Positions 2 through 12,094 are shown, numbered from the stretch's first letter. The stretch: DNA of 12,094 bases from Candidatus Iainarchaeum sp. (GCA_030649345.1 JAUSKK010000026.1:1-12094); one strand, 5' to 3'. Notes: generated by a model from the sequence alone, not told the origin. Program-made: numbers and translations.

Positions 2-817
2 CCAAAAATGAAAAACGGAATGGATTCATCGGCATTACAACCTGGAGAAGAAAAAACTGGATGGGTGGCTTGCGAAATTAATGTTGAAAATGATCAAGTG
101 ACAGCAATCTACGATGATGCAATTCCAATTATGGAACGCAGTGGACCCAATGGACCTAAGTCCTATGGAACAATTACAATCAAAATAGTGGATGCTTTAG
201 TGGATGATGTAACTGCAATTGGAAAATTAAACGAATTTGTAGGAAACGAATACACTCCAGTGGATGTCAAAATTAATTCGTTTGAATACAAAGATAATTT
301 AACTGGTGTGAATTTGCCAAAATTATGCAAACAAACTCAATTTAGATCTTCTCCGGATACAGCATGTAAAGCATTGATCGTAAATGCAACCATCAAAAAC
401 AAGTCAGGTTATAATTTGCCGATCACGTATGGAGTCAAAAGATTTACAGTTATATTAGACAAAATGATTGAAGTAACCAGTATTTATCAGGCTGATCCGC
501 TTCAAGGCATGGAAGACTATGAAGGCGGAGCTAATGAAGAAATAGAAATTTACGACAATCAATCCCAATTACAAGAATATTATATTGAAAATTATACAGG
601 GCATTTAAGTTTGGAAAATTTTGAACCCGGAGAAGAACGAACCGGCAGTTTGGTTTTCTTGGTTCCAAAAAATGATGAACTGTTTCCAAATGATGCAACC
701 AATATTGTGTTCCGAAGATATTTTCCATTTGACAGAACGCAAATATTAATTCCATTAAACGAAAATCAAGAAACAATCAAAGAGTTAGAAGATATTAAGA
801 CACATTATACTCCGTAA
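2..817 (+). CDS. Exported DUF4352-like beta-sandwich protein, C-terminal part (5' end lies upstream of the window)
   Basis: The reading frame is open back to nt 2. The first residues (LQPGEEKTGWVACEINV) are already the C-terminal signature of a DUF4352-type module, so the ATG at 8 is probably internal. A second complete module follows: VDVKINSFEYKD...LIVNATIKNKSGYNL...LENFEPGEERTGSLVFLVPKND. This fits the usual DUF4352 pattern (vtv.s.e / v.v.N.g / PGe..G.lvF.vp). It shares the NSFEYKD and GEE[KR]TG motifs with the next ORF. Confidence 0.6.
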   Translation, partial: PKMKNGMDSSALQPGEEKTGWVACEINVENDQVTAIYDDAIPIMERSGPNGPKSYGTITIKIVDALVDDVTAIGKLNEFVGNEYTPVDVKINSFEYKDNLTGVNLPKLCKQTQFRSSPDTACKALIVNATIKNKSGYNLPITYGVKRFTVILDKMIEVTSIYQADPLQGMEDYEGGANEEIEIYDNQSQLQEYYIENYTGHLSLENFEPGEERTGSLVFLVPKNDELFPNDATNIVFRRYFPFDRTQILIPLNENQETIKELEDIKTHYTP

Positions 818-833
818 ACTGAAAGGTGAAAAA

Positions 834-2312
834 ATGAATAACAAAATAATGATTACACTCATTTTAGGAATACTATTACTGGGATGCACTCAACCAGCAA
901 GCAATACAGATACTTCAGGAAATGAAACAACCAATGGAACCGGAACACAAGAAACAAACACAGGAACTTCTTCTACAAGCAGTCAAACTATTTCAGCAGC
1001 TAATTTACCCAGTTATGCTGGAGAAGGATTACGATATGCAGTGCAAGCCAAACCTTTAGCGCAGTTATCTTCAGAAGAAAAAAACACGCGCGAACAAGAA
1101 CTCAGAGAAATGCTTGCAAGATTAAAGGAAACTGTTCCCAGTTCTATTTTAGAAAACTGCAAAAGCAATGGCATTATGCCAGAATTATGGAAACAAACAA
1201 TTACAGCCCAAGAAATGGAGTCTCAAGCAGAAACTGAAAATCCATTTGGATTCACTTCACCCATTTCTGTTTATCAAGATTCAGTTTATGATACAGGAAT
1301 TCACAGCACAGTTGATACAGAATCTGGTTTAGATGGAATTACAAAAAAAGTATGTGAAAGCAGGCGTGCAGGCTTAGGATACTCACAGGAAACAAAAGCA
1401 GAGGCAGCAAGCAGGTTTAAAATTGGCAGAAATCAATGTACGATTTCCCTTCGAACAAAAAATTCGCTCAATACATTTGGTTTTGCCAGTGATAGTTCAA
1501 TAAGTATTGGAGAATATGAAAGTGAACAAAAAGCAATGGCTAGATTTGAATATGCATGGGTGGATCGAATGAAATCAGCCGTAACATACCCTTATGTTGA
1601 ACCACAATTGGTTTATTCAAATGGAATACTTGGATTCAAATCAAGCCATAGTTTCATGGGAATCAAAGGAAAATATATTGTGGCAGTTGATGGAAAGGAA
1701 ATAAATGGAACCGAAGAAATTGTTGAACGAAAAATTCGAAACAGAGAATTGGATTGCTTAGATTATCCAGAAGAAAGAATGCAGTTGGTAAGCGAAGTTT
1801 TAGACTTAGCCAATAATCCTGAAAAATTCAGAGATTATGAAAGCTTTCAAACACCCATTATGAAAGGAAATGCAGGCGAAAAATTAAGCAATAGATTAAT
1901 TGAATTAACTGTAAACAGTTTTGAATACAAAGACAAACTTGGAGCACAAGGACAAATTAAGCCTTATCTAAGCATGGAAACAGAACCGTACAAATTTATT
2001 GTAATGGATATTACTTTAAAAAATTTAGACACTAAACCAGCGGATTGGTTTGATTCAGGCTGGCTTCCTTTACGAGAACATGAGCAATCGCAATCTATGT
2101 ATTTAACCAACAACCAACCAGCATTCAGCCAAGGATGGTATGATAGTGCCTGTTTTACTGATCAGATGGAAATACTTACTGGAGCCATGGATTTAAGTCC
2201 ACTTAATTCAGGAGAAGAGAGAACTGGAAAAGTAGTATGCGAAATAACTAAAGTACCCAATGGAGTCAACTTAATATTTGACCGAAAAACTATCCAAGTA
2301 AATTTGGAGTAA
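834..2312 (+). CDS. Lipoprotein with Thr/Ser/Asn-rich linker and C-terminal DUF4352-like domain; paralog of the upstream ORF
   Basis: ATG at 834 is preceded by GGTGA (825-829). The signal peptide ends in lipobox LLLGC (Cys codon 885-887), followed by TQ and a T/S/N/G-rich low-complexity linker with NxT sequons. The C-terminus reads IELTVNSFEYKDKLG...FIVMDITLKNLDTKP...LSPLNSGEERTGKVVCEI. The central ~300 aa have no family I recognise. Confidence 0.7.
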   Translation: MNNKIMITLILGILLLGCTQPASNTDTSGNETTNGTGTQETNTGTSSTSSQTISAANLPSYAGEGLRYAVQAKPLAQLSSEEKNTREQELREMLARLKETVPSSILENCKSNGIMPELWKQTITAQEMESQAETENPFGFTSPISVYQDSVYDTGIHSTVDTESGLDGITKKVCESRRAGLGYSQETKAEAASRFKIGRNQCTISLRTKNSLNTFGFASDSSISIGEYESEQKAMARFEYAWVDRMKSAVTYPYVEPQLVYSNGILGFKSSHSFMGIKGKYIVAVDGKEINGTEEIVERKIRNRELDCLDYPEERMQLVSEVLDLANNPEKFRDYESFQTPIMKGNAGEKLSNRLIELTVNSFEYKDKLGAQGQIKPYLSMETEPYKFIVMDITLKNLDTKPADWFDSGWLPLREHEQSQSMYLTNNQPAFSQGWYDSACFTDQMEILTGAMDLSPLNSGEERTGKVVCEITKVPNGVNLIFDRKTIQVNLE

Positions 2313-2322
2313 AAAAGATTGT

Positions 2323-2883
2323 ATGAAGAACTCTATTTTAGGAATAGTTTTCATTTTAGTTTTGGGCTGCACACAAGGAGTTCCGGATTTAGGCGGAAGC
2401 ACACAATTTAATGCAGATACATCTGACACAGTCAATGGAAGTGCAGATCAAACTGGAAATGGAACTCTAACTACATCTACTGTAACTGTAGGTGAATTAA
2501 GCGTGCAAAAACCTGGAGATACCTGGATTACGTATTCCGATGAACAGCAAACTGTTTTTCAGAACATAAATGAAACCAATTTTATTATTGTTTCAGAAAA
2601 CAGCGAAGCTTCAATCCAAGATATTTTAACTGTAATAAAAAATGCAGCAAATGAAAGCAATGGAGAATTTGTAATTCAAAAAGAAGAAAATATTGAAGTA
2701 GATGGAGTAACTGGGAAACAAATTGACGTATTGTTTACGGTGGAACCTAAAATTTTATTCAAAACTGTTCTGGTTGAAAAAAATGGAAAAACTTACAAAA
2801 TTGGAACCAGCGCACCAGAAAGTGATCTTGCTTTTTGGGAAACCTTTTGGAAAATATTTTTGCAGAATGCAAAACTGGAATGA
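2323..2883 (+). CDS. Small lipoprotein of unknown function
   Basis: Starts 10 nt after the previous stop. Signal peptide MKNSILGIVFILVLGCTQG has the same GCTQ lipobox context, followed by a T/S/N-rich linker with NGS/NGT sequons. The globular C-terminal ~120 aa are not assignable by eye. Confidence 0.65.
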   Translation: MKNSILGIVFILVLGCTQGVPDLGGSTQFNADTSDTVNGSADQTGNGTLTTSTVTVGELSVQKPGDTWITYSDEQQTVFQNINETNFIIVSENSEASIQDILTVIKNAANESNGEFVIQKEENIEVDGVTGKQIDVLFTVEPKILFKTVLVEKNGKTYKIGTSAPESDLAFWETFWKIFLQNAKLE

Positions 2884-2889
2884 TTAAAT

Positions 2890-3942
2890 ATGAATAAAAA
2901 AATAATTTGGATATTACTATTTTTTGGATTTCTGATTTTGGCTTTAAATGGATTTGCAGACGGCGGCTTTGAACAAAAATGTTTGCCTGGAGGAAATGCC
3001 AGCTTAACCAGTGTACTATGCAGTTTATGCATTACAGAATGTGAAGGAAAATGTTTGGATCAAAAATGGTTGCCGGACATAGATAGTTGTATTGACAATC
3101 CAGATATTTTTAACTTTGATTTCGAAACTGAAGCCTGCACTTGCGGTTTAGGAAGTGGTTCTGGAACCAATCCAACTAGAACCGGAACTGCTGGCGAAAA
3201 CCAATCAACTGGTTGTTCTTGGTTTGATCAAATGATCGCAGAATTTGTAGATGAAGAAATTGTAATCAATGCCAGCGACCGAGGACTTGCCAATTTAGGA
3301 ATTCAAGCCGAAGCTGGACCCAGCGAAAAAACAGCTAGAACTAATTGGAACGGCGTATTAGGACTTGAAACCAAAAAAGCAAGATCTGGAGATATTGTTG
3401 CAGGAAATACAGCAGAATGGGCTGGAAATAAATTTGTTCGAACCATGGCCAATTGGCTGGTGGATACAGGAGTACGGGGAACAGTTGCAAGAGCTATGGT
3501 GTCCGGAAGTGGCGGTGACAATATTTGGAATCCGAATAGCAATAGCGGTCCCAGAACAGAAGCTTTTTTTGGTGAAATTGAAAACATTCAAGGAAACAAT
3601 GAAGTGGATACAATAAAACAAGTGTATGAAAGTATGACTGAAAAAGTTCCAGGATATGGAGTAACTGGCGATAAACCATTAACGCATTATGCAACCTATG
3701 AAGAAATGTTTGTAACAGGTTCTGGAATCTGCAGAGACAAAAGTGGATTGTTAGTCAATGCACTGGAACGAAAAGGAATTGACGCCCAAGTTATTGGAGA
3801 TGCAACCCATATGTGGGTGCGGGTTACTTTAGACGAAGGGGATAATGCCGGAAAAGAATTTGATTTAGATCCAACCTGGTATCAAAACTTTGTACCTTTA
3901 CCTACCCGAAGTGCAGAAAATCGAGCAGAAGGAAACTGTTAA
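2890..3942 (+). CDS. Secreted protein with Cys-rich N-terminal region and C-terminal transglutaminase-like (papain-fold) Cys-His-Asp core
   Basis: Starts 6 nt after the previous stop. Signal peptide is MNKKIIWILLFFGFLILALNGFA. The C-terminal segment GSGICRDKSGLLVNALERKGIDAQVIGDATHMWVRV...EFDLDPTW matches the transglutaminase-like core pattern G.C.d...l....lR..GIpar...g...HaWveV...DPt. By my count the triad is Cys281 (tgc 3730-3732), His307 and Asp327. Confidence 0.7.
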   Translation: MNKKIIWILLFFGFLILALNGFADGGFEQKCLPGGNASLTSVLCSLCITECEGKCLDQKWLPDIDSCIDNPDIFNFDFETEACTCGLGSGSGTNPTRTGTAGENQSTGCSWFDQMIAEFVDEEIVINASDRGLANLGIQAEAGPSEKTARTNWNGVLGLETKKARSGDIVAGNTAEWAGNKFVRTMANWLVDTGVRGTVARAMVSGSGGDNIWNPNSNSGPRTEAFFGEIENIQGNNEVDTIKQVYESMTEKVPGYGVTGDKPLTHYATYEEMFVTGSGICRDKSGLLVNALERKGIDAQVIGDATHMWVRVTLDEGDNAGKEFDLDPTWYQNFVPLPTRSAENRAEGNC

Positions 3943-5402
3943 ACAGCTGTTGGTTTCGATTTGGGTTTAAGCAAATGAGTTCGAATTAAGTGAATAGATA
4001 CTAAAATGATTACTGAACCCAAAACCATGAACATCCAATAATCTTTAAATAAATCGTGAATTCTTAAAGGCCCTTTGTTTTCTGAAACCAATACAATATA
4101 TTCTGAAGGTTTTTCTAAAGGTTGAACTGAAACTGAACGCAGTTTATAGGATTGAATTTTAGGCTGAGTCATATTCAATAAAATTACATTGTCTTTTTTT
4201 TCAACAGTATACAATAAAGGATCAATTGGATTTCCTGCATTGTCTTCTAAAACCATATTGAAATCTCCAGAAGACCAATTAAAGCTGGCCAGCAAAACAT
4301 GAGTTTCATAAGTTGGCTTGAATTCCAATAAAACTTTTTCTGAATCCAAAGGCAGGATTGCATTTGAACTTTCAAATACAATCGTTTGCCCTAAACCTAA
4401 ATGAGCTGCTTTCATGACTGCTAAAATTATTTCATTAGAAGTTGAAGCAAATGCATACGTGCCATGGGTTAGTTCAGCCAATTCGCTTAAAAGCTTGGAA
4501 TCCACTTCATCTTCAAGCATACCTAAACCAATGACATCAATTACAATACCATTATCATCTGCCATTTTTCCGTATTTTTTCAGAACAGCCTCTGAATCCA
4601 AGCCAGTTCCACTACGGCCGTCCGATACAAAAATAATCCGTTTGGATGCAGAAATCCAAATATTGACATCTTCACGTCTTTGAATTTTTTCGAGTTCTTT
4701 AAATGTTTCCTTGAAACCATCGCTGATATCTGTTCCAGAGCTACTGGATATATTCAAAACTTGATGTCTGGCAAATTCTAAATCAAGCGATTCCGAAGAA
4801 GAAAAATACATGGAACTACTGTATCCTGAAAGAAGAATAATACCAGTAAGATAATTGGTGTCAAAAAAATCTTGATACAATTGCTGCAAGGAAAGTAAGC
4901 TTGCCAATCCTTGTTTGGCAAAAGTCAGTTTGGAAATTTCAAAATCTTCAGTTTCTTCGGTTAATTCGCTTCTTCGATTATTTAATTCTTTTCCAGTTTC
5001 ATACAAAGGATGGTTTCGATTTAAATCCAAATTATCGTAATCCACATCATTAAAATCAGTGAGTTCACAAATATCACAACCGGCAAAAAAATGCAATTTA
5101 TCTTGTTCGGTTAAAGAACCTGAAAAATTTTGCAAATCCAAACGAAATTGAATTAGTTTAGCTTGCAGTTCTTCCGGCAATTCAGCCATTTGCACAGGAG
5201 AAGGAAATGCTGGCCAGTCCATGCTTCCAGAAACATCCACAGTCAACATACTTACTGTATTGGAGGGTGCATTAATTTTAGAAATTGTGTCTGAAGTTAA
5301 AACAAAAAAGGCAATCAGTAGCAATAGAAAAAATAAGATTACAAATTCAGCATATTTTTTCAGAAACATAATAAAATAAGGAAATTTCAAGTATTTAATC
5401 AT
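3939..5402 (-). CDS. von Willebrand factor A (MIDAS) domain protein with N- and C-terminal transmembrane anchors
   Basis: Hydrophobic N-terminal anchor FVILFFLLLLIAFFVLT. MIDAS DxSxS appears in LTVDVSGSM, then SGTDISDGF (MIDAS Thr region) and RIIFVSDGRSG (MIDAS Asp). C-terminal TM is WMFMVLGSVIILVSIHLI with a basic tail. Its stop overlaps the ORF4 stop in a shared TTAA (convergent). An alternative start at 5369 (MFLKKYAEF...) gives a more canonical n-region and has ATTAAATA about 28 nt upstream. Confidence 0.75.
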   Translation of the reverse strand: MIKYLKFPYFIMFLKKYAEFVILFFLLLLIAFFVLTSDTISKINAPSNTVSMLTVDVSGSMDWPAFPSPVQMAELPEELQAKLIQFRLDLQNFSGSLTEQDKLHFFAGCDICELTDFNDVDYDNLDLNRNHPLYETGKELNNRRSELTEETEDFEISKLTFAKQGLASLLSLQQLYQDFFDTNYLTGIILLSGYSSSMYFSSSESLDLEFARHQVLNISSSSGTDISDGFKETFKELEKIQRREDVNIWISASKRIIFVSDGRSGTGLDSEAVLKKYGKMADDNGIVIDVIGLGMLEDEVDSKLLSELAELTHGTYAFASTSNEIILAVMKAAHLGLGQTIVFESSNAILPLDSEKVLLEFKPTYETHVLLASFNWSSGDFNMVLEDNAGNPIDPLLYTVEKKDNVILLNMTQPKIQSYKLRSVSVQPLEKPSEYIVLVSENKGPLRIHDLFKDYWMFMVLGSVIILVSIHLIRTHLLKPKSKPTAV

Positions 5403-5501
5403 TCTGATTTATTTAAGCATTCTAATTTCCAGCAAAGCAGGATTGCGTCTTTTAATCTTTTGCAATAAATATATTTGAAAACAACAAAGGCTGTAATTTT
5501 A

Positions 5502-5532
5502 AATGATTGTTGAAAAAAATGATTTAAATTAA
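5502..5532 (+). repeat. Orphan duplicate of the start codon region of the FKBP gene (left copy of a direct repeat)
   Basis: aatgattgttgaaaaaaatgatttaa at 5502-5527 is identical (26/26) to 6715-6740, which contains the FKBP ATG at 6716. With one extra A the match extends through ttaa (5529-5532 versus 6741-6744). As it stands it encodes only MIVEKNDLN-stop. Confidence 0.85.
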
Positions 5533-6425
5533 CCGCTTAATTTTCTTTGTTTAATTGTGCTTAAAGTTTCAAAGTAAGCAGAAATAACATCGGTTAATTC
5601 AAGATTGCGTTTTAAACCCAAGCGATGGACTTCTTGCAAATATACAGTTAACAAGTCCAATGAAATACGTTCATCGGATTTAAAAAAGTGGTCCGTGTTT
5701 TCTATTCTATTAATCTGAATGTTTAACATCAATTTTTTTAGTTCTCCAACTTGAATGGTTTGATCGGAAACCGTGTCATAAACTAATTTTTTCAGTTCTT
5801 GAATTTGGATGACTTCATCTGCAGATTTTTCCACCATGGCATTTTTCAAGTTTTGCAAGCCTAAATCCAAAGACGGGCCGAATTCTGAAAAAATTATACG
5901 CAAGTCATTCAAAAATTCTTGTTTATTAAATTCCGGAACAATGGTTTGAATTTTTTCAACTGGAGCTTTACGAACAATAGTGCGGATCACAGTAACAGGT
6001 ACTTTTCGAATCACAGTACGAATTTTAGTAACTATTCTTGGTTTTGAAACAACTGTTTTTCGAATTACTCTAGTTCGAGTTCGAACCAAAGGAAGGCCTT
6101 TTGAATACGCTTTCCATAAGTTAACAGCTTGATTAAAAGTACGACCTGCGTTAAGTTGACGTCGCATAAAAAGATTGTATTCTGAAAGTTGTTTTTTAGA
6201 TGTTTTCTTTTTTGAAAGTTTCAGTAAATGAACTTTAAGGCGAATCATTTCATTGCTTAAATTAGCAGTTTTTACAGCCACAGTCCTGGCAGTTTTGGCA
6301 GTTTTTTTCTTAGTTGTCGCAATTCCAAGCCTAAGCTTTTTGGATTTATTTTTTTCAACAGAAAGTCCTTTTCTAAGAAAACGTATTTCAGTCTCTAACT
6401 TATTGGTTGGAATTTGAGTCAGCAT
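5529..6425 (-). CDS. Highly basic orphan protein with tandem V/I-R-K/T repeats; possible nucleic-acid-binding protein
   Basis: The long ORF in the track starts at a TTG (caa at 6531-6533), and its first 36 codons look like read-through. The first ATG is at 6425 (MLTQIPTNKLE...). The N-terminal half is Lys/Arg/Thr-rich and includes the repeat tract RTRTRVIRKTVVSKPRIVTKIRTVIRKVPVTVIRTIVRKAPVEKIQTIV (nt 5937-6086). The C-terminal half is neutral to acidic and looks helical. No family recognised. The exact start is uncertain. Confidence 0.5.
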   Translation of the reverse strand: MLTQIPTNKLETEIRFLRKGLSVEKNKSKKLRLGIATTKKKTAKTARTVAVKTANLSNEMIRLKVHLLKLSKKKTSKKQLSEYNLFMRRQLNAGRTFNQAVNLWKAYSKGLPLVRTRTRVIRKTVVSKPRIVTKIRTVIRKVPVTVIRTIVRKAPVEKIQTIVPEFNKQEFLNDLRIIFSEFGPSLDLGLQNLKNAMVEKSADEVIQIQELKKLVYDTVSDQTIQVGELKKLMLNIQINRIENTDHFFKSDERISLDLLTVYLQEVHRLGLKRNLELTDVISAYFETLSTIKQRKLSG

Positions 6426-6702
6426 AATTAATATATTCAAAGTACAATGGTTAAACTCGCGTTTTGCCGAAAATGTGTGTTTAATGCAAGAAACATGAAA
6501 TCGTAAATTAAGAAGATATCTTGTTTGAAACAAATGAACTATTTTTTCTTGCTTTAATACCTAATGAATCACATCAGTTAGATAATTTTCAACTTTTTTT
6601 AGAAATATAGTTCTTAAAAGCTTTCTTTTCAAAATGTAATAATCAAATTCAAAAAAAAAGACTGTGATGTCATGATTTTAAATTTAAAATTTTGATAATT
6701 CT

Positions 6703-6708
6703 GGAGGG
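6703..6708 (+). promoter_or_regulatory. Shine-Dalgarno-like GGAGGG for the FKBP gene
   Basis: GGAGGG lies 7 nt upstream of the ATG at 6716. Comparable GGTGA motifs precede the ATGs at 834 and 11890. Confidence 0.5.
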
Positions 6709-6715
6709 ATTATGA

Positions 6716-7141
6716 ATGATTGTTGAAAAAAATGATTTAATTAAAGTAGAATACAAAGGAACTTTTCCAGATACAAAAGAAATGTTTGATCAAAGCCAAG
6801 GAAGAGGCCCATTAGAGTTTAGGGTGGGCGCTGGACAAATGATTCAAGGATTTGATGAAGCAGTGATTGGAATGAAATTAAATGAAGAAAAAACTGTAGA
6901 AATTCCACCGGAAAAAGCCTATGGAACCAAAGAAAATGCGCCTAGAATTGAAGCCAGTGTAAGCCAAATTGCAGGCACAGGAAAAGCAACTATTGGACAA
7001 AGTGTTTACACGAATACAGGAATGGAAGGAAAAATTATCAAAATCGAAAAAGGAATGGCCACCATAGAATTTGCACATGAATTGGCTGGAAAAACTTTAG
7101 AATTCTGGATTAAAGTAGTGGAAATCAACAAAGGAAAATAA
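6716..7141 (+). CDS. Short FKBP-type peptidyl-prolyl cis-trans isomerase (SlyD/archaeal short-FKBP type)
   Basis: VEYKGTFPDTKEMFDQS...GPLEFRVGAGQMIQGFDEAVIGMKLNEEKTVEIPPEKAYG is followed by a short flap insert and HELAGKTLEFWIKVVEI. This is the canonical FKBP signature. There is no His-rich tail. Both ends of this gene are duplicated elsewhere in the window (see findings). Confidence 0.9.
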   Translation: MIVEKNDLIKVEYKGTFPDTKEMFDQSQGRGPLEFRVGAGQMIQGFDEAVIGMKLNEEKTVEIPPEKAYGTKENAPRIEASVSQIAGTGKATIGQSVYTNTGMEGKIIKIEKGMATIEFAHELAGKTLEFWIKVVEINKGK

Positions 7142-7161
7142 AAGAAAGCTAGTTAACGATT

Positions 7162-8862
7162 TTATTCATTAGTATTAGCATCTTCAGAATTTGCATTTTT
7201 AAGTATAGGCAAAACATTACTGCCATTTTCACCAGCTTCACTGCATGCATTTTGTTTTGTAAAATATTTTTTAAAATTCTCAAAACCAAATTTTTTAATG
7301 CCAGTGTATTTTTTCTTCAAACCAGCTAACTTGGCTTCAGCACTGCTTAAACCAGAAGCCAATTGATTATGAAATATTTGTTTGCCCAGAGTATTGATTT
7401 CTGTACAGTCCATGGAAATATTAATTTTTTCGCATACATCCGCCAAAGGCTCGATTAACCCAGCAACTCCATTGCAAAACTCTTGGACATCTGCAGTCGT
7501 ATTCTTTAGCCAATCCATATACTGTTGGCCAGTATCAATGCCAGCATCTGAAGAACTTGATTCAAATTCATCCAAGGTATCACATATAATTGGAGAAGTA
7601 GCTGGTGTGTATGGCAAGTCATCAATTTCTTTGCCTAAGTCTGCATACGTTTCACCCACAGCAGCCCAAGCTGAATCCAAACCAGAATTGCATTCTTCAA
7701 ATTTTTTTTCCAATTCATTCAAATAAGCATTAATGTCAGCAGCAGAAGTATTCCAGGCACTGCAATCATCACTTGCGCTCGGTACAGGAAAAACAGGCAA
7801 TACAATATCTGTTTCTATAATTTCAGGACACGGCAATCCAGAATTGGTATCTAAGCCATCCTGCAAATTTTCTAAATCCAAAGAGCCTGCTGGAGTACTC
7901 AAATCAGGCACTGTTAAAAAACTCCACCACGGAGTTTCTGTACTAACTTCAGCCAAGGTTTCTGCATTCACTTTACTGACCACAGATATTTCCAATGGAA
8001 TAAACCACAATAATTTAACTTTTACAGTTTTTTCCACAGCATAAATAGGAAGATTATTTTCAACACTTACCGTTATCTTGGTTACTGTTTCATTTTCTGG
8101 AATCTGCTGTTCAAGTACACTATTTAAATTTTGTTCCAATTCCAATTTTTGGCTTCCAACCGAAAAAGAAAGCAAACCATTTTGAGTAACTTCAACAGTT
8201 TCATTCAACACAATATTGATTGAACGAATTAAACCATGCTGTTCTAAACTGACAACTTTTTGATGCACTCCAGCACTTATTTTTAATGTATCCAATCTTT
8301 TACTGAAGTCTTTTTCTTCCAATTCATTGCCTGCAGGCAAATCCAATTCACTTTGTGCATCAGTCTCTGTTTCTTCTTCAGGAAAACTTTGATCTAATTC
8401 AGGCAGATTAACCAGTGTATCAGACACATTTTCGTTGGGTGCATCAAAACCAGTCAGTTCATTTTCAACAGGTGCATTAAAATCATTCATTTCAGGTTCA
8501 ACAATTTCAACAACACTGCAAGCAGTAAAATCGGTATTGCAGCCAGAATTACAGACTTTGGAATTCCAATAAAAGCAACCGCCCATAAAAGGCTTGACTT
8601 TACCTGAAGAATAAAACACATTATTTTCACAATAATCTAAACAACCCAAAGCTTCGCGTTCTTCAACACAGCTTGTTTGCCCGCTGGTGCAGCCATATTC
8701 ACAAACAATTTCTTCTTCAAAAACACAGTCATTGCTGACTGGATCCACTTGGCCTCCGATGTAATGAATATTTTGATAACAATAATCATTGCACCCGCCA
8801 AAACCTGCAAAAACGGAAAGCGAAAATAAAACAAAAAACAAAACTAAAAAAAGTTTTTTCAT
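7162..8862 (-). CDS. Secreted Cys-rich orphan protein with two tandem 6-Cys modules, an acidic linker and a Cys-containing C-terminal domain
   Basis: Signal peptide MKKLFLVLFFVLFSLSVFAGFGGC is followed by two modules with identical spacing C-x3-C-x17-C-x7-C-x3-C-x6-C, then an E/D-rich linker. A central segment ending KVKLLWFIPLEISVVSKVNAETLAEV..TPWWSFL loosely resembles PepSY-like segments I recall from archaeal hypothetical proteins; this is a low-confidence recollection. TTTATATATT lies 20-29 nt upstream of the ATG. Confidence 0.7.
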   Translation of the reverse strand: MKKLFLVLFFVLFSLSVFAGFGGCNDYCYQNIHYIGGQVDPVSNDCVFEEEIVCEYGCTSGQTSCVEEREALGCLDYCENNVFYSSGKVKPFMGGCFYWNSKVCNSGCNTDFTACSVVEIVEPEMNDFNAPVENELTGFDAPNENVSDTLVNLPELDQSFPEEETETDAQSELDLPAGNELEEKDFSKRLDTLKISAGVHQKVVSLEQHGLIRSINIVLNETVEVTQNGLLSFSVGSQKLELEQNLNSVLEQQIPENETVTKITVSVENNLPIYAVEKTVKVKLLWFIPLEISVVSKVNAETLAEVSTETPWWSFLTVPDLSTPAGSLDLENLQDGLDTNSGLPCPEIIETDIVLPVFPVPSASDDCSAWNTSAADINAYLNELEKKFEECNSGLDSAWAAVGETYADLGKEIDDLPYTPATSPIICDTLDEFESSSSDAGIDTGQQYMDWLKNTTADVQEFCNGVAGLIEPLADVCEKINISMDCTEINTLGKQIFHNQLASGLSSAEAKLAGLKKKYTGIKKFGFENFKKYFTKQNACSEAGENGSNVLPILKNANSEDANTNE

Positions 8863-8881
8863 ACCAATATAAAAAATTCAA

Positions 8882-8891
8882 AATATATAAA
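8882..8891 (-). promoter_or_regulatory. TATA-box-like element upstream of the Cys-rich protein gene
   Basis: On the minus strand TTTATATATT spans about -29 to -20 relative to the ATG at 8862. No Shine-Dalgarno motif lies between. This is compatible with an archaeal-type promoter and a leaderless or near-leaderless mRNA. Confidence 0.3.
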
Positions 8892-8906
8892 CCCAATAGG
8901 CATGAT

Positions 8907-9060
8907 TAAGTGAATATACGCAGACATTAACGGAATTCTTTTACACTAGAATCGTGTGAATTAGTTCTAAAGTAAAGCAGGGAGTGTGAAAAAAATGGTT
9001 CTATATGGAGTAACTTTAGAATTCTGGATCAAAATAGTGGAAATAAAAAAAGGAAAATAA
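8907..9060 (+). pseudogene. Chimeric gene remnant: duplicated DUF1761 upstream region and first 8 codons fused in frame to the last 15 codons plus stop of an FKBP gene
   Basis: 8958-9020 aligns to 10379-10442 (DUF1761 upstream region plus ATG) at about 54 of 64 positions by hand, with weaker similarity back to about 8907 versus 10326. 9012-9060 aligns to 7093-7141 (FKBP 3' end including TAA) at 45/49. The two homologies overlap in aactttaga (9012-9020). The resulting mini-ORF at 8995-9060 encodes MVLYGVTLEFWIKIVEIKKGK. Confidence 0.8.
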
Positions 9061-9061
9061 A

Positions 9062-9072
9062 AAAATATATTA
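9062..9072 (+). promoter_or_regulatory. TATA-box-like element upstream of the lipoprotein gene at 9096
   Basis: AAAATATATTA spans about -34 to -24 relative to the ATG at 9096, with no Shine-Dalgarno motif. The geometry matches that of the 8882-8891 element. Confidence 0.3.
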
Positions 9073-9095
9073 ACTCAACCAGCCCAGTATATCTG

Positions 9096-10292
9096 ATGCA
9101 ATTCAAAAATAAATTAAATATCTTGATAACAGTTTTATTTCTTGTTTTCATTCAAGGCTGTACTCAAGACAACACTGTAATTGATTCTGTTGGAACTGAA
9201 AACAAAATAATTTTTATCGGACCTCAACTTCCTTTGGAAGGAATGTTAGGCGATTCTTTTAGTTATTCTTTTTGCAAGCCAGACTTAGAAGAATCAGGAA
9301 CAACGTGCGGAAGTCTAGAACCTGCAACCAATCCAATTGGAGGAAATCCACCGTATTCTTTTGTGTTAGGTTATGGCGCTGGATTATTGCCACCTGGAAT
9401 TAGATTAAATTTAAACGGATTACTAGAAGGCAATCCCTTGTTAGAAGGAAGTTATACTTTTGAAGTTTGCGCCAAAGATGCAATCCAAAACCAAGATTGT
9501 GAAATTGTAAACACGAATATTTCCAAAGCAGTTCTATTGACAGCAGAAATAACTGGGCAAGGAAGTGGATATTTACATATTGAATCTGATCCACCCATTG
9601 TAGATTGCAGTGATGAAACTCGGGCTTGTTATAGTTACAATCAAGGAGCAGAAGTAACTATGACGCCTGTGCCCAATGAAGGTTCTTTTTTTGAAACTTG
9701 GACAGGAGATTGTACTGGAACAGGAAATTGTACATTGATTATGGATTCAAGTAAAGATACAGAAGCAATTTTTTCAATCAATGAACCAGAAATAATTATG
9801 GATAATTCCACTGAAATCATAGAAGATGAAACTGAAATTCCGCCAGTTGAACCTGAACTAACATTAGCTGTTGAACCTACAGTCACAATTACTTCAGCTA
9901 GTTTAACGAATTGCAGGATTGATACCAGTGATTGGGATATGAGATACTGGACTTTGGCTGCAGAAGGAACTGCCAGCATGGATGCAATGGCAACAGGCTC
10001 GTTAAGTTTGACACCAAAAACAATAGACATAGATGACGGAGAAGCAGAATACCATGGAACCTATGAATTCAATTTAGACTGTGGTGTTTGGACACTCAAT
10101 GCTGAACCAGGATATTATGCAGATTGCAGAAGAGAAGAAGGAAATCCAACCAATACAACTTGGAGATTAACATATGAATCTACTGGAACCAATGTTCCCA
10201 AAACAATAATTGCACTTGCGAAAATTCACCCATATCCAAAAGATCAGCCTAAACAATATGCAGAAGCAGAACAAGTTGCAGGAAATTGTTAA
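9096..10292 (+). CDS. Surface lipoprotein with a He_PIG-like putative Ig domain and a divergent InlB B-repeat-like domain
   Basis: Signal peptide LNILITVLFLVFIQGCTQD carries the GCTQ lipobox. GGNPPYSFVLGYGAGLLPPGIRLNLNGLLEGNPLLEGSYTFEVCAKD fits the He_PIG pattern (PY.f.l....LPpGl.l...G.l.G.P...G.y.f.v...D). ITGQGSGYLHIESDPPIVDCSD..CYSYNQGAEVTMTPVPNEGSFFETWTGDCTGTGNCTLIMDSSKDTEAIF fits the bacterial/archaeal B-repeat pattern (G.G.v......C....y..g..v.l.a.p..g..F..W.G.C.g...C.v.m......a.F). The C-terminal ~150 aa are unassigned. Confidence 0.75.
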   Translation: MQFKNKLNILITVLFLVFIQGCTQDNTVIDSVGTENKIIFIGPQLPLEGMLGDSFSYSFCKPDLEESGTTCGSLEPATNPIGGNPPYSFVLGYGAGLLPPGIRLNLNGLLEGNPLLEGSYTFEVCAKDAIQNQDCEIVNTNISKAVLLTAEITGQGSGYLHIESDPPIVDCSDETRACYSYNQGAEVTMTPVPNEGSFFETWTGDCTGTGNCTLIMDSSKDTEAIFSINEPEIIMDNSTEIIEDETEIPPVEPELTLAVEPTVTITSASLTNCRIDTSDWDMRYWTLAAEGTASMDAMATGSLSLTPKTIDIDDGEAEYHGTYEFNLDCGVWTLNAEPGYYADCRREEGNPTNTTWRLTYESTGTNVPKTIIALAKIHPYPKDQPKQYAEAEQVAGNC

Positions 10293-10416
10293 AAAAAATA
10301 AAAATGACTGAAATTCAAAAAACAGTAAGTGAATCTAAACACAAGCCTTAAGGAAATATTTTTATAGAAGAACAATGCGAATTAATTCTAACATAAAATA
10401 TGGAGTGTGGAAAAAA

Positions 10417-10833
10417 ATGGTCTTATATGGAATAACTTTAGATTATGTGGCTGTTTTGGGTGCAGGTATTGCCAGCATGATTGCAGGATTTATTTGGTAC
10501 GGTCCATTGTTCGGAAAACTTTGGATGAAAGAAATGAAAATTGATTCCAAAAACATGGAAGGAATGAAAAAAGGAATGAGTACAAAGTATGCTTTAAGTT
10601 TGGCAGGCTCTTTGGTTATGGCAGTTATTTTAGGACATGTACTTCCCTTAATGCAGGCCATCACTTTAGTGGCAGGATTAACTGCAGGTTTTTGGATGTG
10701 GTTAGGCTTTATTGCACCTGTACAATTCACCGAAGTATTGTTTGGCGGAAAAAGCATGAAATTATTTGCATTAAATACAGGGCATCAGTTAGTTTCAGTT
10801 TTGGTCATGAGTGCAGTTTTGGTTTTAGTTTAA
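10417..10833 (+). CDS. DUF1761 family small integral membrane protein
   Basis: AGIASMIAGFIWYGPLFGKLWMKEM...MWLGFIAP...LFALNTGHQLVSVLVMSAVL matches the DUF1761 signature (GF.WY.P.LFGK.W, WLGF) and has four hydrophobic segments. I prefer the ATG at 10417 over the track start at 10375. In the duplicated copy of this upstream region (8958-8994) the equivalent of codon 2 is TGA and there is a 1-nt indel, so the stretch behaves as non-coding. Confidence 0.8.
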   Translation: MVLYGITLDYVAVLGAGIASMIAGFIWYGPLFGKLWMKEMKIDSKNMEGMKKGMSTKYALSLAGSLVMAVILGHVLPLMQAITLVAGLTAGFWMWLGFIAPVQFTEVLFGGKSMKLFALNTGHQLVSVLVMSAVLVLV

Positions 10834-10860
10834 AAAAATCAAAACTTTTTTTCTTTTTTT
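10832..10860. terminator. Possible bidirectional oligo-T terminator between convergent genes
   Basis: On the plus strand tttttttcttttttt (10846-10860) follows the DUF1761 stop. On the minus strand a T7 run (complement of 10832-10838) follows the DUF475 stop. There is no convincing hairpin. Oligo-T tracts of this kind terminate archaeal transcription. Confidence 0.3.
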
Positions 10861-11866
10861 AATTTTCTTTTGTTTGAATTTCAGGCAATACATTTTGCAA
10901 AGCTTTTTTGGATTTCCAGAAAAAGAATGCAATTACTGCAACTGTAATCACTGGAGAAACATATTGAGGAATATGCATTCCAAAACTGTCCAACAACATA
11001 ATGATTCCTAAAAAGAAAACAGAATACATGGCGCCATTTTTCAAATACTTGTATTTTTTAACGCGCTCAATATTGTGCACAGTAAATTCTCGGACAACAA
11101 AGGCTCCCAAACCGTTTCCTAAAATAATTAAAGGAACAGACAAAGTAAAAGCAAATGCTCCAACAACTCCATCAATGGAAAAAGTTGTGTCGATCACTTC
11201 CAAGTATAAAATTTTGCTCCAGTCACTCATGGGATGACCGCTTAAAAGTTCTTTTTCTTTGGCTTCAGCATTTTCTTTAAATCCATGCGTAATAAAAAAT
11301 GCAGTTGAACCAACCACTGCACCAAAAGCCATCATCGAATTTTTTTGAACCGCCAACCAAACAATGACTGTCAACAAAATAGATACAACTGCAAAAAACC
11401 ATATACTGTATTTTTGAATAACTTCTTCTCCTTTCAAACCATAATGTTTGGGTTCAATAAACAACCAATGCAAAAACAGGAATAGTAAAAAAATTCCTCC
11501 GGCAATCAATAAAATTGGCTTGGAAGCTTCCAAAGATTCTAAAACAATAGGATCTGAGCTAAAGGTTGCAGTCAAAGCCTGAATAGGCCCTAAAGAAGGA
11601 TTGGATAACCAGACAATCATCCAAGGCAATAGGCCGCGGACAGCAAATACTGCAAATAATAAACCCCAAAGCAAAAACCATTTTCTTGCACGAGCACTCA
11701 TAGTTCTTAGTACATCGGCATTAATGACTGCATTGTCAATCGAGGTAATGGTTTCAAATAAAGCCAAACCTAAAACAGTTAAAATAATAGGCCCAAAATC
11801 AAACATATATAAGAAAAACAATGATAAAAGATTTAAAAAGCAAACTTTAGTAATTAAATGATACAA
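10859..11866 (-). CDS. DUF475 (TerC-related) integral membrane protein
   Basis: LFETITSIDNAVINADVLRTMSARARKWFLLWGLLFAVFAVRGLLPWMIV matches the DUF475/TerC-type motif (E..lS.DNA.vNA..L..M...w...FL.wG.l.AvfgmR...P..iv). A second related motif, LEVIDTTFSIDGVVGAFA, occurs in the C-terminal half. The protein has many TM segments. An alternative start at 11806 (MFDFGPIIL) would leave a more plausible 83-nt divergent promoter region shared with sodN. Confidence 0.75.
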   Translation of the reverse strand: MYHLITKVCFLNLLSLFFLYMFDFGPIILTVLGLALFETITSIDNAVINADVLRTMSARARKWFLLWGLLFAVFAVRGLLPWMIVWLSNPSLGPIQALTATFSSDPIVLESLEASKPILLIAGGIFLLFLFLHWLFIEPKHYGLKGEEVIQKYSIWFFAVVSILLTVIVWLAVQKNSMMAFGAVVGSTAFFITHGFKENAEAKEKELLSGHPMSDWSKILYLEVIDTTFSIDGVVGAFAFTLSVPLIILGNGLGAFVVREFTVHNIERVKKYKYLKNGAMYSVFFLGIIMLLDSFGMHIPQYVSPVITVAVIAFFFWKSKKALQNVLPEIQTKEN

Positions 11867-11889
11867 AAATCAGGCAATACGGTGATTGA

Positions 11890-12094
11890 ATGAAAAAAGC
11901 AAATATTTTTGAAAAAATAGTCTTAAAAGGAATGAATTTAATTTCAAAACCAGAAAAGGTTTCTGCCCACTGCGATATCCCATGTGGAATCTATGAAACG
12001 GACAGCATGAAGCAGGCAGCTGAAACAGTATGCAAAATGATGGAAAAAATGAATGAATTGGAAAAAAACAAGCCCTCAGATCCGAAAGCAAAAC
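11890..12094 (+). CDS. sodN: Nickel-containing superoxide dismutase precursor, 5' part (continues beyond the window)
   Basis: Not in the ORF track because no stop falls within the window. Translation from the ATG at 11890 (GGTGA at 11881-11885) gives MKKANIFEKIVLKGMNLISKPEKVSA-HCDIPCGIYETDSMKQAAETVCKMMEKMNEL... The sequence KVSA/HCD[IL]PCG[IV]Y is the NiSOD propeptide cleavage site and nickel-hook motif (Streptomyces SodN: ...KVTVSAHCDLPCGVYDP). The 73-aa minus-strand ORF at 11870-12091 is its shadow. Confidence 0.9.
   Translation, partial: MKKANIFEKIVLKGMNLISKPEKVSAHCDIPCGIYETDSMKQAAETVCKMMEKMNELEKNKPSDPKAK

What the first reader, a model, noticed from the sequence alone, without database searches (positions are those of the whole stretch)
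7093..10442. Two unrelated surface-protein genes stacked in one slot, each bracketed by the same pair of host-gene ends
The order is FKBP-3' (7093-7141), Cys-rich gene on minus (7162-8862), DUF1761-5' (8907-9020), FKBP-3' (9012-9060), lipoprotein gene on plus (9096-10292), DUF1761-5' (10326-10442). The slot between FKBP and DUF1761 is therefore present twice in tandem with completely different cargo on opposite strands. My inference is that the FKBP-DUF1761 interval is a hypervariable slot carrying alternative surface-protein alleles in different strains. Two alleles would have been combined additively, for example by homology-facilitated illegitimate recombination. In that process one end is anchored by homology in a flanking gene and the other end joins at microhomology, as described for naturally transformable bacteria. 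Integration of a circularised segment is an alternative. No integrase, transposase, inverted repeats or att-like hairpins are visible. A 9-bp overlap is shorter than typical assembler k-mers, which argues against a simple strain-bubble misassembly. This would let a small genome accumulate surface-protein diversity without dedicated mobile-element machinery.
Basis: inference. Interest (0 to 1): 0.75.

Follow-up and report, generated by a model that had tools for sequence, protein, structure and literature searches.

The report
Stacked surface-gene slots in DPANN archaeon
In a tiny groundwater archaeon, two unrelated surface-protein genes sit one behind the other because two diverged versions of the same chromosomal interval were joined at a 9-base overlap; this is a genuine recombination scar of a known type, not a new kind of genetic system.

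Summary
The window is a whole 12,094-nt contig of a Candidatus Diapherotrites/Iainarchaeota (DPANN) MAG. The last 49 nt of the FKBP gene recur at 9012-9060 (92% over 51 nt). The DUF1761 upstream region plus its first 26 nt recur at 8907-9020. The two fragments meet at a 9-nt microhomology, AACTTTAGA, and fuse in frame into a 21-codon relic ORF.

An independent k=31 assembly (Logan, SRR13727527) runs unbroken through the junction. No second full-length FKBP or DUF1761 of ≥90% identity exists among about 15 billion proteins. A two-strain assembly chimera is therefore unlikely.

The coding-derived parts of the duplicated flanks differ by 8-12% and the non-coding part by about 25%. This is the pattern expected of orthologous loci from separate lineages, so the best reading is one illegitimate recombination that stacked two alleles of the interval.

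The "hypervariable slot" idea is only weakly supported. The single close relative (92% FKBP, 600-nt contigs) has a third, unrelated sequence downstream of FKBP.

A third scar lies just outside the finding: a 26-nt perfect copy of the FKBP start brackets gene g6. The Logan contig ends indicate that this 1.2-kb segment is present/absent polymorphic in the population.

This is a new archaeal example of known processes (illegitimate recombination, insertion with long target duplication). Interest is moderate.

The parts
5497..5532 (+). Orphan copy of the FKBP start (ATG at 5503) lying directly against the stop codon of g6. 5502-5527 is 26/26 identical to 6715-6740. The 5 nt before it (TTTTA) match the Rifle relative L086, not the window's own FKBP upstream.
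   Evidence: (D6)
5529..6425 (-). g6, a 298-aa K/R-rich protein with no match in any protein-family library. It is the cargo of the 1,213-nt segment bracketed by the 26-nt repeat. The Logan unitig 5498-6744 corresponds exactly to this segment plus k-1 bases at each end.
6716..7141 (+). Full-length FKBP-type peptidyl-prolyl isomerase gene (141 aa), the left flank gene A.
7087..7157 (+). 3' end of FKBP plus about 14 nt after the stop. This is the reference copy of repeat a.
   Evidence: (D2)
7162..8862 (-). Cargo 1, a 566-aa secreted protein with a signal peptide, two Cys-rich repeats (residues 1-120) and two further modules. It has 143 remote homologues; the closest is an 85%-identical N-terminal fragment from SRR3990167. 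A TATA-like box sits about 30 nt upstream of its ATG, within 8863-8900.
8907..9020 (+). b': copy of the DUF1761 upstream region (8907-8994) plus its first 26 nt (8995-9020). It is about 75% identical to 10326-10442.
9012..9020 (+). The 9-nt microhomology AACTTTAGA shared by the DUF1761 5' end and the FKBP 3' end. This is the recombination joint.
8995..9060 (+). In-frame relic ORF of 21 codons: DUF1761 codons 1-8 fused to the last 13 FKBP codons and the stop (MVLYGVTLEFWIKIVEIKKGK*).
   Evidence: sequence; codon view
9006..9074 (+). a': copy of the FKBP 3' end. It has 4 differences in 49 nt from the joint to the stop (2 synonymous, V>I, N>K), plus about 14 nt after the stop.
9096..10292 (+). 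Cargo 2, a 398-aa predicted lipoprotein with a lipobox (IQGC), a weak Ig-like He_PIG match and an InlB B-repeat-like domain. A TATA-like box lies at 9065-9074.
10326..10442 (+). Upstream region and first 26 nt of the full DUF1761 gene. This is the reference copy of repeat b.
10417..10833 (+). Full-length DUF1761 membrane protein gene, the right flank gene B. The annotated start is 10375.

Best explanation
The region is the scar of one illegitimate, microhomology-mediated recombination between two diverged versions of the same chromosomal interval.

One version was FKBP-cargo1-DUF1761 and the other was FKBP-cargo2-DUF1761. They came from lineages that differ by roughly 10% in coding DNA. A strand ending 26 nt into DUF1761 of the first version was joined to a point 49 nt before the FKBP stop of the second version, at the shared 9-mer AACTTTAGA.

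The product is FKBP-cargo1-[DUF1761 5' | FKBP 3']-cargo2-DUF1761. The second allele was added rather than exchanged. Both cargo genes kept their own promoters, both flank genes stayed intact, and a 21-codon fusion relic was left behind.

Shown: the anatomy, the joint, the reality of the haplotype, and the allele-like divergence of the flank copies.

Inferred: that the partner was DNA from a related cell. Three routes would give the same product. The first is a linear fragment resolved by a second, homologous exchange in or beyond DUF1761 (the HFIR type). The second is a circularised fragment integrated by a single crossover in the DUF1761 upstream region. The third is an unequal crossover between two chromosomes in one cell.

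The same kind of event probably produced the neighbouring g6 segment, which is bracketed by a 26-nt copy of the FKBP start and still appears to be present/absent polymorphic.
For: 1. Repeats and joint are at exact coordinates and far above chance.

2. Cargo 1 and cargo 2 are unrelated and lie on opposite strands, so the two units are not copies of one another.

3. Divergence is allele-like. a' vs A differs at 4/49 positions (2 synonymous, 2 conservative). The b' coding part differs at 3/26 (2 synonymous, I/V). The b' non-coding part has 22 mismatches and 3 gap columns in 91. Coding vs non-coding gives p = 0.013. For comparison, the window vs the Rifle relative L086 differs at 51/426 coding positions (27 synonymous and 11 non-synonymous codons) and is much more diverged upstream.

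4. a' shares two states with L086 that the resident FKBP lacks.

5. The haplotype is real. Logan contig L001 (k=31, every 31-mer seen at least twice) equals window 6715-12017 with no break at 9012-9020.

6. No second FKBP or DUF1761 of ≥90% identity exists in the collection, which includes the same run.

7. No recombinase, tRNA, structured RNA or inverted repeats are present.

8. Neighbouring precedent: the 26/26 repeat brackets g6. The Logan contigs cover 1634-5522, 5498-6744 and 6715-12017. The last two overlap by exactly k-1 = 30 nt at the repeat, as predicted if reads also join 5527 to 6741.

9. Independent case: in archaeal contig L082 a 37%-identical homologue of cargo 2 is bracketed by a unique, perfect 31-nt direct repeat of a neighbour gene's promoter region.
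Against: - No single-cargo relative was found, so the two parental arrangements are inferred, not seen.
- The flank copies are short (49, 26 and 88 nt), so the divergence argument rests on few sites.
- An old in-situ duplication followed by drift could also leave a' carrying ancestral states.
- No reads were available. Coverage and read pairing across the joint were not checked, and Minia simplification could have removed minor alternative paths.
- DNA uptake or cell fusion has not been demonstrated in Iainarchaeota.
- The left Logan contig ends at 5522, not at the predicted 5527, so the g6 polymorphism model does not explain every contig end.
Confidence: 0.6

Rival explanations
1. An old tandem duplication within one lineage. 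The interval from the FKBP 3' end to the DUF1761 5' end was duplicated by slippage at the 9-nt microhomology. Later the cargo of one copy was replaced, or two cargos were inserted independently at equivalent positions, and the orphan flank copies drifted.
For: The b'|a' order is exactly the novel joint of a tandem duplication. The flank copies are diverged by 8-25%, so the event is not recent. a' is closer to the resident FKBP (4/49) than the Rifle relative is (9/49).
Against: This model needs at least two events instead of one. There is no residual similarity between the cargo regions at DNA or protein level. Orphan fragments should decay at one neutral rate, yet the coding-derived parts are three times better conserved than the non-coding-derived part, with mostly synonymous or conservative changes (p = 0.013). 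The homology arms left for a later replacement would be only about 50-115 nt.
Confidence: 0.17
2. An artefact. Two co-occurring strains, each with one cargo, were joined by an assembler or by a chimeric molecule formed in vitro at the short homology, and the two cargos are never on one chromosome.
For: The flank copies differ as two strains or species would. The window is a short MAG contig. The two available assemblies probably rest on the same reads.
Against: A 9-nt overlap cannot link paths in a de Bruijn graph. An independent k=31 assembly, which requires every 31-mer at least twice, gives the identical sequence with no branch at the joint, whereas it does break at the nearby g6 repeat. 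The remainder of the supposed second-strain FKBP and DUF1761 genes is absent from the 90% clusters, which include the Logan assembly of the same run. A rare in-vitro chimera would not form the dominant path.
Confidence: 0.07
3. Cassettes of a site-specific system (integron-like or a small integrative element) whose recombinase is encoded elsewhere in the genome. The duplicated gene ends would then act as attachment sites.
For: The cassettes are discrete, 1.2-1.7 kb, single-gene units with sharp homology boundaries and their own promoters. The g6 segment appears to be gained or lost precisely at its 26-nt repeat.
Against: No integrase or transposase is present in the 12 kb, and there are no PHROG or viral relatives. 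The three repeat pairs share no common motif or hairpin. The repeats are pieces of the neighbouring genes, 26 to about 115 nt long and different at each site, which fits homology-driven rather than site-specific recombination.
Confidence: 0.04

Closest known systems
Insertion with long target duplication (Nobusato et al. 2000; surveyed by Furuta, Abe & Kobayashi 2010, PMC2853133)
   Same: A gene-sized insert with no mobility genes, flanked by direct repeats of tens to hundreds of bp that are a duplicated piece of the target. The repeats often overlap ends of neighbouring genes and are imperfect. The g6 segment (26-31 nt repeat), the L082 case (31 nt) and the cargo 2 unit (about 115-nt DUF1761 repeat) all have this form.
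   Different: The described cases are restriction-modification genes in bacteria, mostly naturally competent species. No archaeal case passed that survey. Here the host is a DPANN archaeon and the cargos are secreted or lipoproteins. In addition, the insert carries a piece of the opposite flank gene at its far end, which identifies it as the allelic interval of a relative.
Homology-facilitated illegitimate recombination in naturally transformable bacteria (de Vries & Wackernagel 2002; Prudhomme et al. 2002; cited from my own knowledge, term also used in PMC6382021)
   Same: There is a joint at a short microhomology (9 nt here, within the 3-10 nt typical range). A homologous region (DUF1761 and beyond) is available on the other side to anchor and resolve the exchange. 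The result adds foreign DNA without a dedicated recombinase.
   Different: The homologous anchor exchange is not visible in the sequence. Transformation is not known for this lineage. In HFIR experiments the incoming DNA is usually unrelated to the locus, whereas here it is the same locus from a relative, so both flank genes leave duplicated ends.
Tandem-duplication joints formed by illegitimate recombination at short homologies (classical bacterial duplication and amplification work; from my own knowledge)
   Same: The b'|a' order, with a downstream gene start fused to an upstream gene end at a microhomology, is the diagnostic novel joint of a tandem duplication.
   Different: The two repeat units carry unrelated cargo, and the flanks differ by 8-25%. 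The units are not sister copies.
Replacement flexible genomic islands and binary (tandem) capsule loci of pneumococcal transformants (from my own knowledge; not tested here)
   Same: Conserved flank genes surround alternative, unrelated surface-structure genes. Aberrant recombination can place two alternative loci in tandem.
   Different: Alternative single-cargo alleles were not observed for this interval. The only hint is one 600-nt contig from a relative with a third downstream sequence.

Membership tests
Insertion with long target duplication | The insert is flanked by direct repeats longer than about 30 bp | tested here: met
   b'/B is about 115 nt at 75% identity. a'/A is 51-70 nt at 86-92%. 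The g6 repeat is only 26 nt perfect, or 31-36 nt with 2 mismatches and an indel, so it is borderline.
Insertion with long target duplication | The repeat is single-copy at an empty site in a related genome | tested here: inconclusive
   No related genome spans the FKBP-DUF1761 interval. For g6, an empty-site haplotype is inferred from Logan contig ends 5498, 6744 and 6715, which match the k=31 prediction, but no read was seen.
Insertion with long target duplication | No transposase, integrase or other mobility gene in or next to the insert | tested here: met
   Scans of the relevant ORFs against Pfam, NCBIfam and PHROGs gave no such hit, and there are no viral relatives.
Homology-facilitated illegitimate recombination | An illegitimate joint at a short microhomology | tested here: met
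   The 9 nt AACTTTAGA is shared by both parents at 9012-9020, and 12 of 14 positions match if extended.
Homology-facilitated illegitimate recombination | A homologous anchor exchange on the other side of the incoming DNA | not testable with these tools
   This needs the donor or recipient sequence. No relative with >66% FKBP identity on a long contig exists in the collections searched.
Homology-facilitated illegitimate recombination | Uptake of free DNA by a naturally competent cell | not testable with these tools
   This needs experiments or a complete genome inventory. Only 12 kb of the genome is in hand.
In-situ tandem duplication | The two repeat units are homologous along their length | tested here: not met
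   Only the flank ends match. The cargos are unrelated (BLASTP E 4.8) and there are no other DNA matches.
Integron or site-specific integrative element | A tyrosine or serine recombinase together with conserved attachment sites or attC-like inverted repeats at cassette boundaries | tested here: not met
   There is no recombinase, no significant inverted repeats at the boundaries and no tRNA target. A recombinase elsewhere in the genome cannot be excluded.
Replacement (hypervariable) genomic island | The same conserved flanks hold different gene content in different strains | tested here: inconclusive
   The nearest relative, L086/L087 (FKBP 92% aa), keeps homology for about 19 nt after the stop. 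A different plus-strand ORF then starts that is unrelated to either cargo. The contig ends 74 nt after FKBP, so DUF1761 linkage is unknown. In the more distant UBA10205 the FKBP-DUF1761 gap (3.1 kb) holds HIT, VapBC and pirin genes.

The most novel reading that the evidence does not exclude
DPANN archaea of this group may routinely gain and lose single surface-protein genes through a recombinase-free route. In this reading, short-homology or microhomology recombination with DNA from related cells stacks alternative cassettes between housekeeping genes and leaves duplicated gene ends. The process would still be active in the sampled population, as the g6 presence/absence suggests. It would also recur for the same lipoprotein family in other archaeal genomes, as in L082. 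This would be a general mechanism of surface diversification in genomes that lack mobile-element machinery.
Probability: 0.2. Interest if true: 0.65.

Novelty: new member of a known kind. Interest (0 to 1): 0.4.

Why it matters
DPANN archaea have very small genomes and depend on contact with other cells, and their surface proteins evolve fast. How they acquire new surface genes is poorly documented.

This locus gives a base-pair-resolved example of a gene being added, rather than swapped, by illegitimate recombination between diverged alleles, with no mobile-element genes involved. Next to it is a second cassette that seems to be segregating in the same population.

If such scars prove common in closed DPANN genomes, they would be a simple marker for tracing inter-lineage DNA exchange and for finding the loci under diversifying pressure. 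As a single locus, it is a well-supported but unsurprising instance of known recombination outcomes.

Tried and rejected
- **Synteny in 185,579 species genomes, FKBP as query.** The best relatives are only 58-64% identical. None shares any neighbour except UBA10205, which has DUF1761 3.1 kb downstream with unrelated housekeeping-type genes between. These genomes are too distant to test the slot idea.
- **JGI metagenome scan with DUF1761.** The best hit is 53% identical and none has FKBP nearby.
- **Contexts of cargo 2 homologues (P0003, P0007, P0008) and of the cargo 1 homologue P0141.** None lies between FKBP and DUF1761.
- **Cargo 1 as an ORFan.** The word-indexed search suggested this. A full HMMER scan then found 143 remote homologues and one 85% N-terminal fragment, so I rejected it. 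That fragment (P0140) is a protein-level assembly with no DNA on record, so its flanks could not be read.
- **Mobile-element origin.** The scans returned no recombinase or mobility family and no PHROG family, and there are no IMG/VR relatives of g6, cargo 1 or cargo 2.
- **Other features.** No Rfam family or tRNA was found. The sigma-70 and terminator scans were at background level and are not appropriate for archaea anyway.
- **Survey of dispersed direct repeats in all 90 fetched loci, to ask whether such scars are common.** I abandoned this as a statistic because hits are dominated by tRNA paralogues (for example L005) and paralogous gene segments. Only the L082 case was kept after inspection.
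- **Apparent FKBP 3'-like stretch at 5465-5490 (77% over 26 nt, D18).** This is no better than chance.
- **Circle or tandem-array junction for g6.** This predicts contig ends at 5502, 6740, 6712 and 5530, which were not observed.
- **My first g6 look-up** used a protein lacking its initial Met and failed. It was repeated correctly.

Full report
**What the window is.** The 12,094-nt window is an entire NCBI contig of a MAG named Candidatus Diapherotrites archaeon. Its locus tags are Q7S92_03480 and Q7S92_03485, and its proteins are MDO8428247-50. The closest FKBP homologues in 185,579 species genomes are Candidatus Iainarchaeum MAGs at 58-64% identity. The organism is therefore a DPANN archaeon with no close sequenced relative. 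GC content is about 0.28-0.43 across the window, and the cargo genes show no compositional step.

The gene order is as follows:
- four secreted proteins or lipoproteins, two of them with DUF4352-type domains
- a vWA-like membrane protein, g5
- g6
- FKBP
- cargo 1
- cargo 2
- DUF1761
- a DUF475/TerC membrane protein
- the start of a nickel superoxide dismutase gene

**Check of the observation.** A self-comparison gives three direct repeats well above chance:
- 7093-7143 vs 9012-9062, 92% over 51 nt, E 1e-13
- 6715-6740 vs 5502-5527, 26/26, E 3e-8
- 8988-9020 vs 10410-10442, 91% over 33 nt, E 3e-5

Its non-coding part alone scores 45, against 19.5 +/- 3.1 in 500 shuffles. The FKBP copy extends about 14 nt beyond the stop codon.

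The two orphan fragments overlap by the 9-mer AACTTTAGA at 9012-9020. This 9-mer is present in both parents: ACT TTA GAT in DUF1761 and ACT TTA GAA in FKBP, in the same reading frame. The fusion therefore leaves a 21-codon relic ORF at 8995-9060.

Cargo 1 and cargo 2 are intact, lie on opposite strands and are unrelated.

**Is it a real molecule?**
- A Logan assembly of run SRR13727527 contains a 5,303-nt contig identical to window 6715-12017. Logan uses Cuttlefish2 and Minia3 with 31-mers, keeps only k-mers seen at least twice and makes all 31-mers distinct.
- That contig passes the FKBP 3' end, cargo 1, the b'|a' joint, cargo 2 and DUF1761 without a break. The same assembly does break at the nearby 26-nt repeat (see the third scar, below). 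At k=31 there is therefore no competing path of appreciable depth at the joint.
- If the contig were a chimera of two strains, the rest of the second strain's FKBP and DUF1761 should exist. The 90%-identity cluster of FKBP holds only the window's protein and one Rifle-aquifer protein. The DUF1761 cluster holds only the window's protein. Both were searched among about 15 billion sequences that include this run.

I put the artefact reading at about 7%. Read depth and pairing could not be examined.

**What the cargos are.**
- Cargo 2 has a lipobox (LVFIQGC), a weak Ig-like He_PIG match and an InlB B-repeat-like domain. Its homologues are at most 37% identical.
- Cargo 1 has a signal peptide and two Cys-rich repeats. 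The word-indexed search found nothing. A full HMMER scan found 143 remote homologues covering three modules (residues 1-120, 205-320 and 340-540). One of them is 33% identical with a similar overall architecture. Another is an 85%-identical N-terminal fragment from another run, SRR3990167, for which no DNA is held.
Each has its own TATA-like box about 26-37 nt upstream of its ATG (sequence).

**How it arose.** The order b'|a', a downstream gene start joined to an upstream gene end, is the novel joint of a tandem duplication or of a circularised interval. It cannot be produced by a simple insertion between FKBP and DUF1761. Because the two units carry unrelated cargo, sister copies are excluded.

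The divergence of the flank copies is informative:
- From the joint to the stop, a' differs from FKBP at 4 of 49 positions: two synonymous, plus V>I and N>K.
- The coding part of b' differs at 3 of 26 positions: two synonymous, plus I/V.
- The non-coding part of b' has 22 mismatches and 3 gap columns in 91.
- Coding-derived versus non-coding-derived divergence gives Fisher p = 0.013.

Orphan fragments decaying in place should diverge at one neutral rate. A three-fold difference with mostly silent changes is what orthologous functional loci in separate lineages show. The window and the Rifle relative L086 differ at 51 of 426 coding positions (27 synonymous and 11 non-synonymous codons) and far more in the upstream region. 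a' also shares two states with L086 that the resident FKBP lacks.

The most economical account is therefore a single illegitimate exchange between two alleles of the interval from lineages about 10% apart. I give this about 0.6. Three routes give the same product and cannot be separated from sequence alone. They are a linear fragment anchored by homology (HFIR), a circle integrated in the DUF1761 upstream region, and an unequal crossover between two chromosomes in one cell.

**The hypervariable-slot claim.** This part is weakly supported.
- No contig closer than about 66% FKBP identity spans the interval in any collection searched.
- The one close relative (P0018, 92% aa) lies on two roughly 600-nt Rifle groundwater contigs. 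It keeps homology for about 19 nt after the FKBP stop. It then starts a different plus-strand ORF (MERKSRLTDFDKMMMRPFI...) that matches nothing in the window.
- This gives a third kind of sequence at the same boundary, which is in line with a variable slot. However, the contig ends before any DUF1761.
- Distant homologues of both cargos sit in unrelated contexts.

**A third scar, and evidence of ongoing turnover.** This copy lies directly against the stop codon of g6, a 298-aa K/R-rich protein with no family match. The 5 nt before the orphan copy match the Rifle relative rather than the resident FKBP.

The Logan contigs tile the window as 1634-5522, 5498-6744 and 6715-12017, all at 100% identity. 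The repeat (26 nt) is shorter than k-1 (30 nt), so it cannot branch the graph by itself.

Suppose the reads also contain a haplotype lacking the 1,213-nt segment, with 5527 joined to 6741. Then a k=31 graph must yield a g6 unitig spanning 5498-6744 and a right unitig starting at 6715. Both are observed to the base, and these two contigs overlap by exactly 30 nt. The left contig should end at 5527 but ends at 5522, which is unexplained and may reflect one more variant. A circle or tandem joint predicts different ends and is not supported.

I infer that the g6 segment is present/absent polymorphic, or has an alternative cargo, in the sampled population, with breakpoints at the repeat edges. This rests on contig ends, not on reads.

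**An independent case.** In archaeal contig L082 (GCA_053536435.1) the best homologue of cargo 2 (P0003, 37% identity, also a lipoprotein) lies, together with a RelE/ParE-like gene fragment, between two perfect copies of a 31-nt sequence that is unique in the locus. The second copy is the promoter region 7 nt upstream of a peroxiredoxin gene. This has the same form as the g6 case.

**Comparison with known phenomena.**
- The structures match "insertion with long target duplication". That term describes gene-sized inserts without mobility genes, flanked by long, often imperfect, direct repeats of the target. It has been described for restriction-modification genes in mostly competent bacteria, and no archaeal case passed that survey.
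- The joint has the microhomology hallmark of homology-facilitated illegitimate recombination. The other defining features of HFIR, the anchor exchange and DNA uptake, could not be tested.
- A site-specific system is not supported. There is no recombinase, no common motif and no hairpins, and the repeats are pieces of whichever gene lies next door.
- What is particular here is the interleaved a ... b'a' ... b signature, which identifies the added DNA as the allelic interval of a relative, and the DPANN host.

**Verdict.** This is a new archaeal member of a known class of recombination products. Interest is 0.4. It would rise if read-level data confirm the segregating g6 segment and if closed genomes show such scars to be a general route of surface-gene gain in DPANN archaea.

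Noticed in passing
window 5497-5532 and 6709-6744 (g6 segment 5528-6714): A perfect 26-nt copy of the FKBP start brackets the K/R-rich gene g6. Logan contigs from the same run end or start at 5522, 5498, 6744 and 6715. Three of these four positions are exactly those predicted at k=31 if a g6-less haplotype coexists.
   Followed up: yes
L082 2508-2538 and 4182-4212: In another archaeal MAG contig, the closest homologue of cargo 2 (P0003, 37% identity) and a RelE/ParE-like gene fragment are bracketed by a unique, perfect 31-nt direct repeat. The second copy is the promoter region of a peroxiredoxin gene. This looks like an independent insertion with target duplication.
   Followed up: partly
window 5522/5523: The left Logan contig ends 5 nt before the position predicted by the simple empty-site model. 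The Rifle relative L086 has G instead of T at the equivalent FKBP position, so a further haplotype may exist in the sample.
   Followed up: no
window 1634 (left end of Logan contig L100); inverted repeat 1531-1551 / 1634-1654: The other end of that Logan contig falls on the first base of the right arm of a 21-nt, 86%-complementary inverted repeat inside lipoprotein gene g2. This could be chance or another structural variant.
   Followed up: no
window 7703-7721 and 12050-12068: There is a perfect 19-nt inverted match (E 5e-4) between cargo 1 and the start of the superoxide dismutase gene. Both encode ...NELEKK..., so this is probably chance in A-rich coding sequence.
   Followed up: partly
window 11890-12094: A plus-strand gene running off the contig end begins MKKANIF...SAHCDIPCGIYE. 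From my own knowledge this is the Ni-hook motif of nickel superoxide dismutase; I did not run it against any family library. Logan calls a gene here.
   Followed up: no
window 6716-7141 compared with FKBP homologues: This FKBP (141 aa) and its Rifle relative lack the roughly 40-50-aa N-terminal signal/lipobox extension that most Iainarchaeota homologues (180-200 aa) carry, for example L012 with LLLAGCSQQ.
   Followed up: no
window 8-3942: Four consecutive secreted proteins or lipoproteins are present. g1 has a DUF4352 match, g1 and g2 share the repeated PGEE(K/R)TG motif, and g4 is weakly transglutaminase-like. The whole contig is unusually rich in surface proteins.
   Followed up: partly
L085 11745-11781 / 12347-12383 and 12873-12900 / 13246-13273: Near-identical 28-37-nt sequences recur around ribosomal protein and RNA polymerase subunit genes in another archaeal contig. 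They are possibly duplicated promoter elements.
   Followed up: no
cargo 1, window 7162-8862: The word-indexed protein search reported no homologue at all. The exhaustive HMMER scan found 143, including an 85%-identical fragment. ORFan calls from the indexed search should not be trusted for low-complexity, modular proteins.
   Followed up: yes
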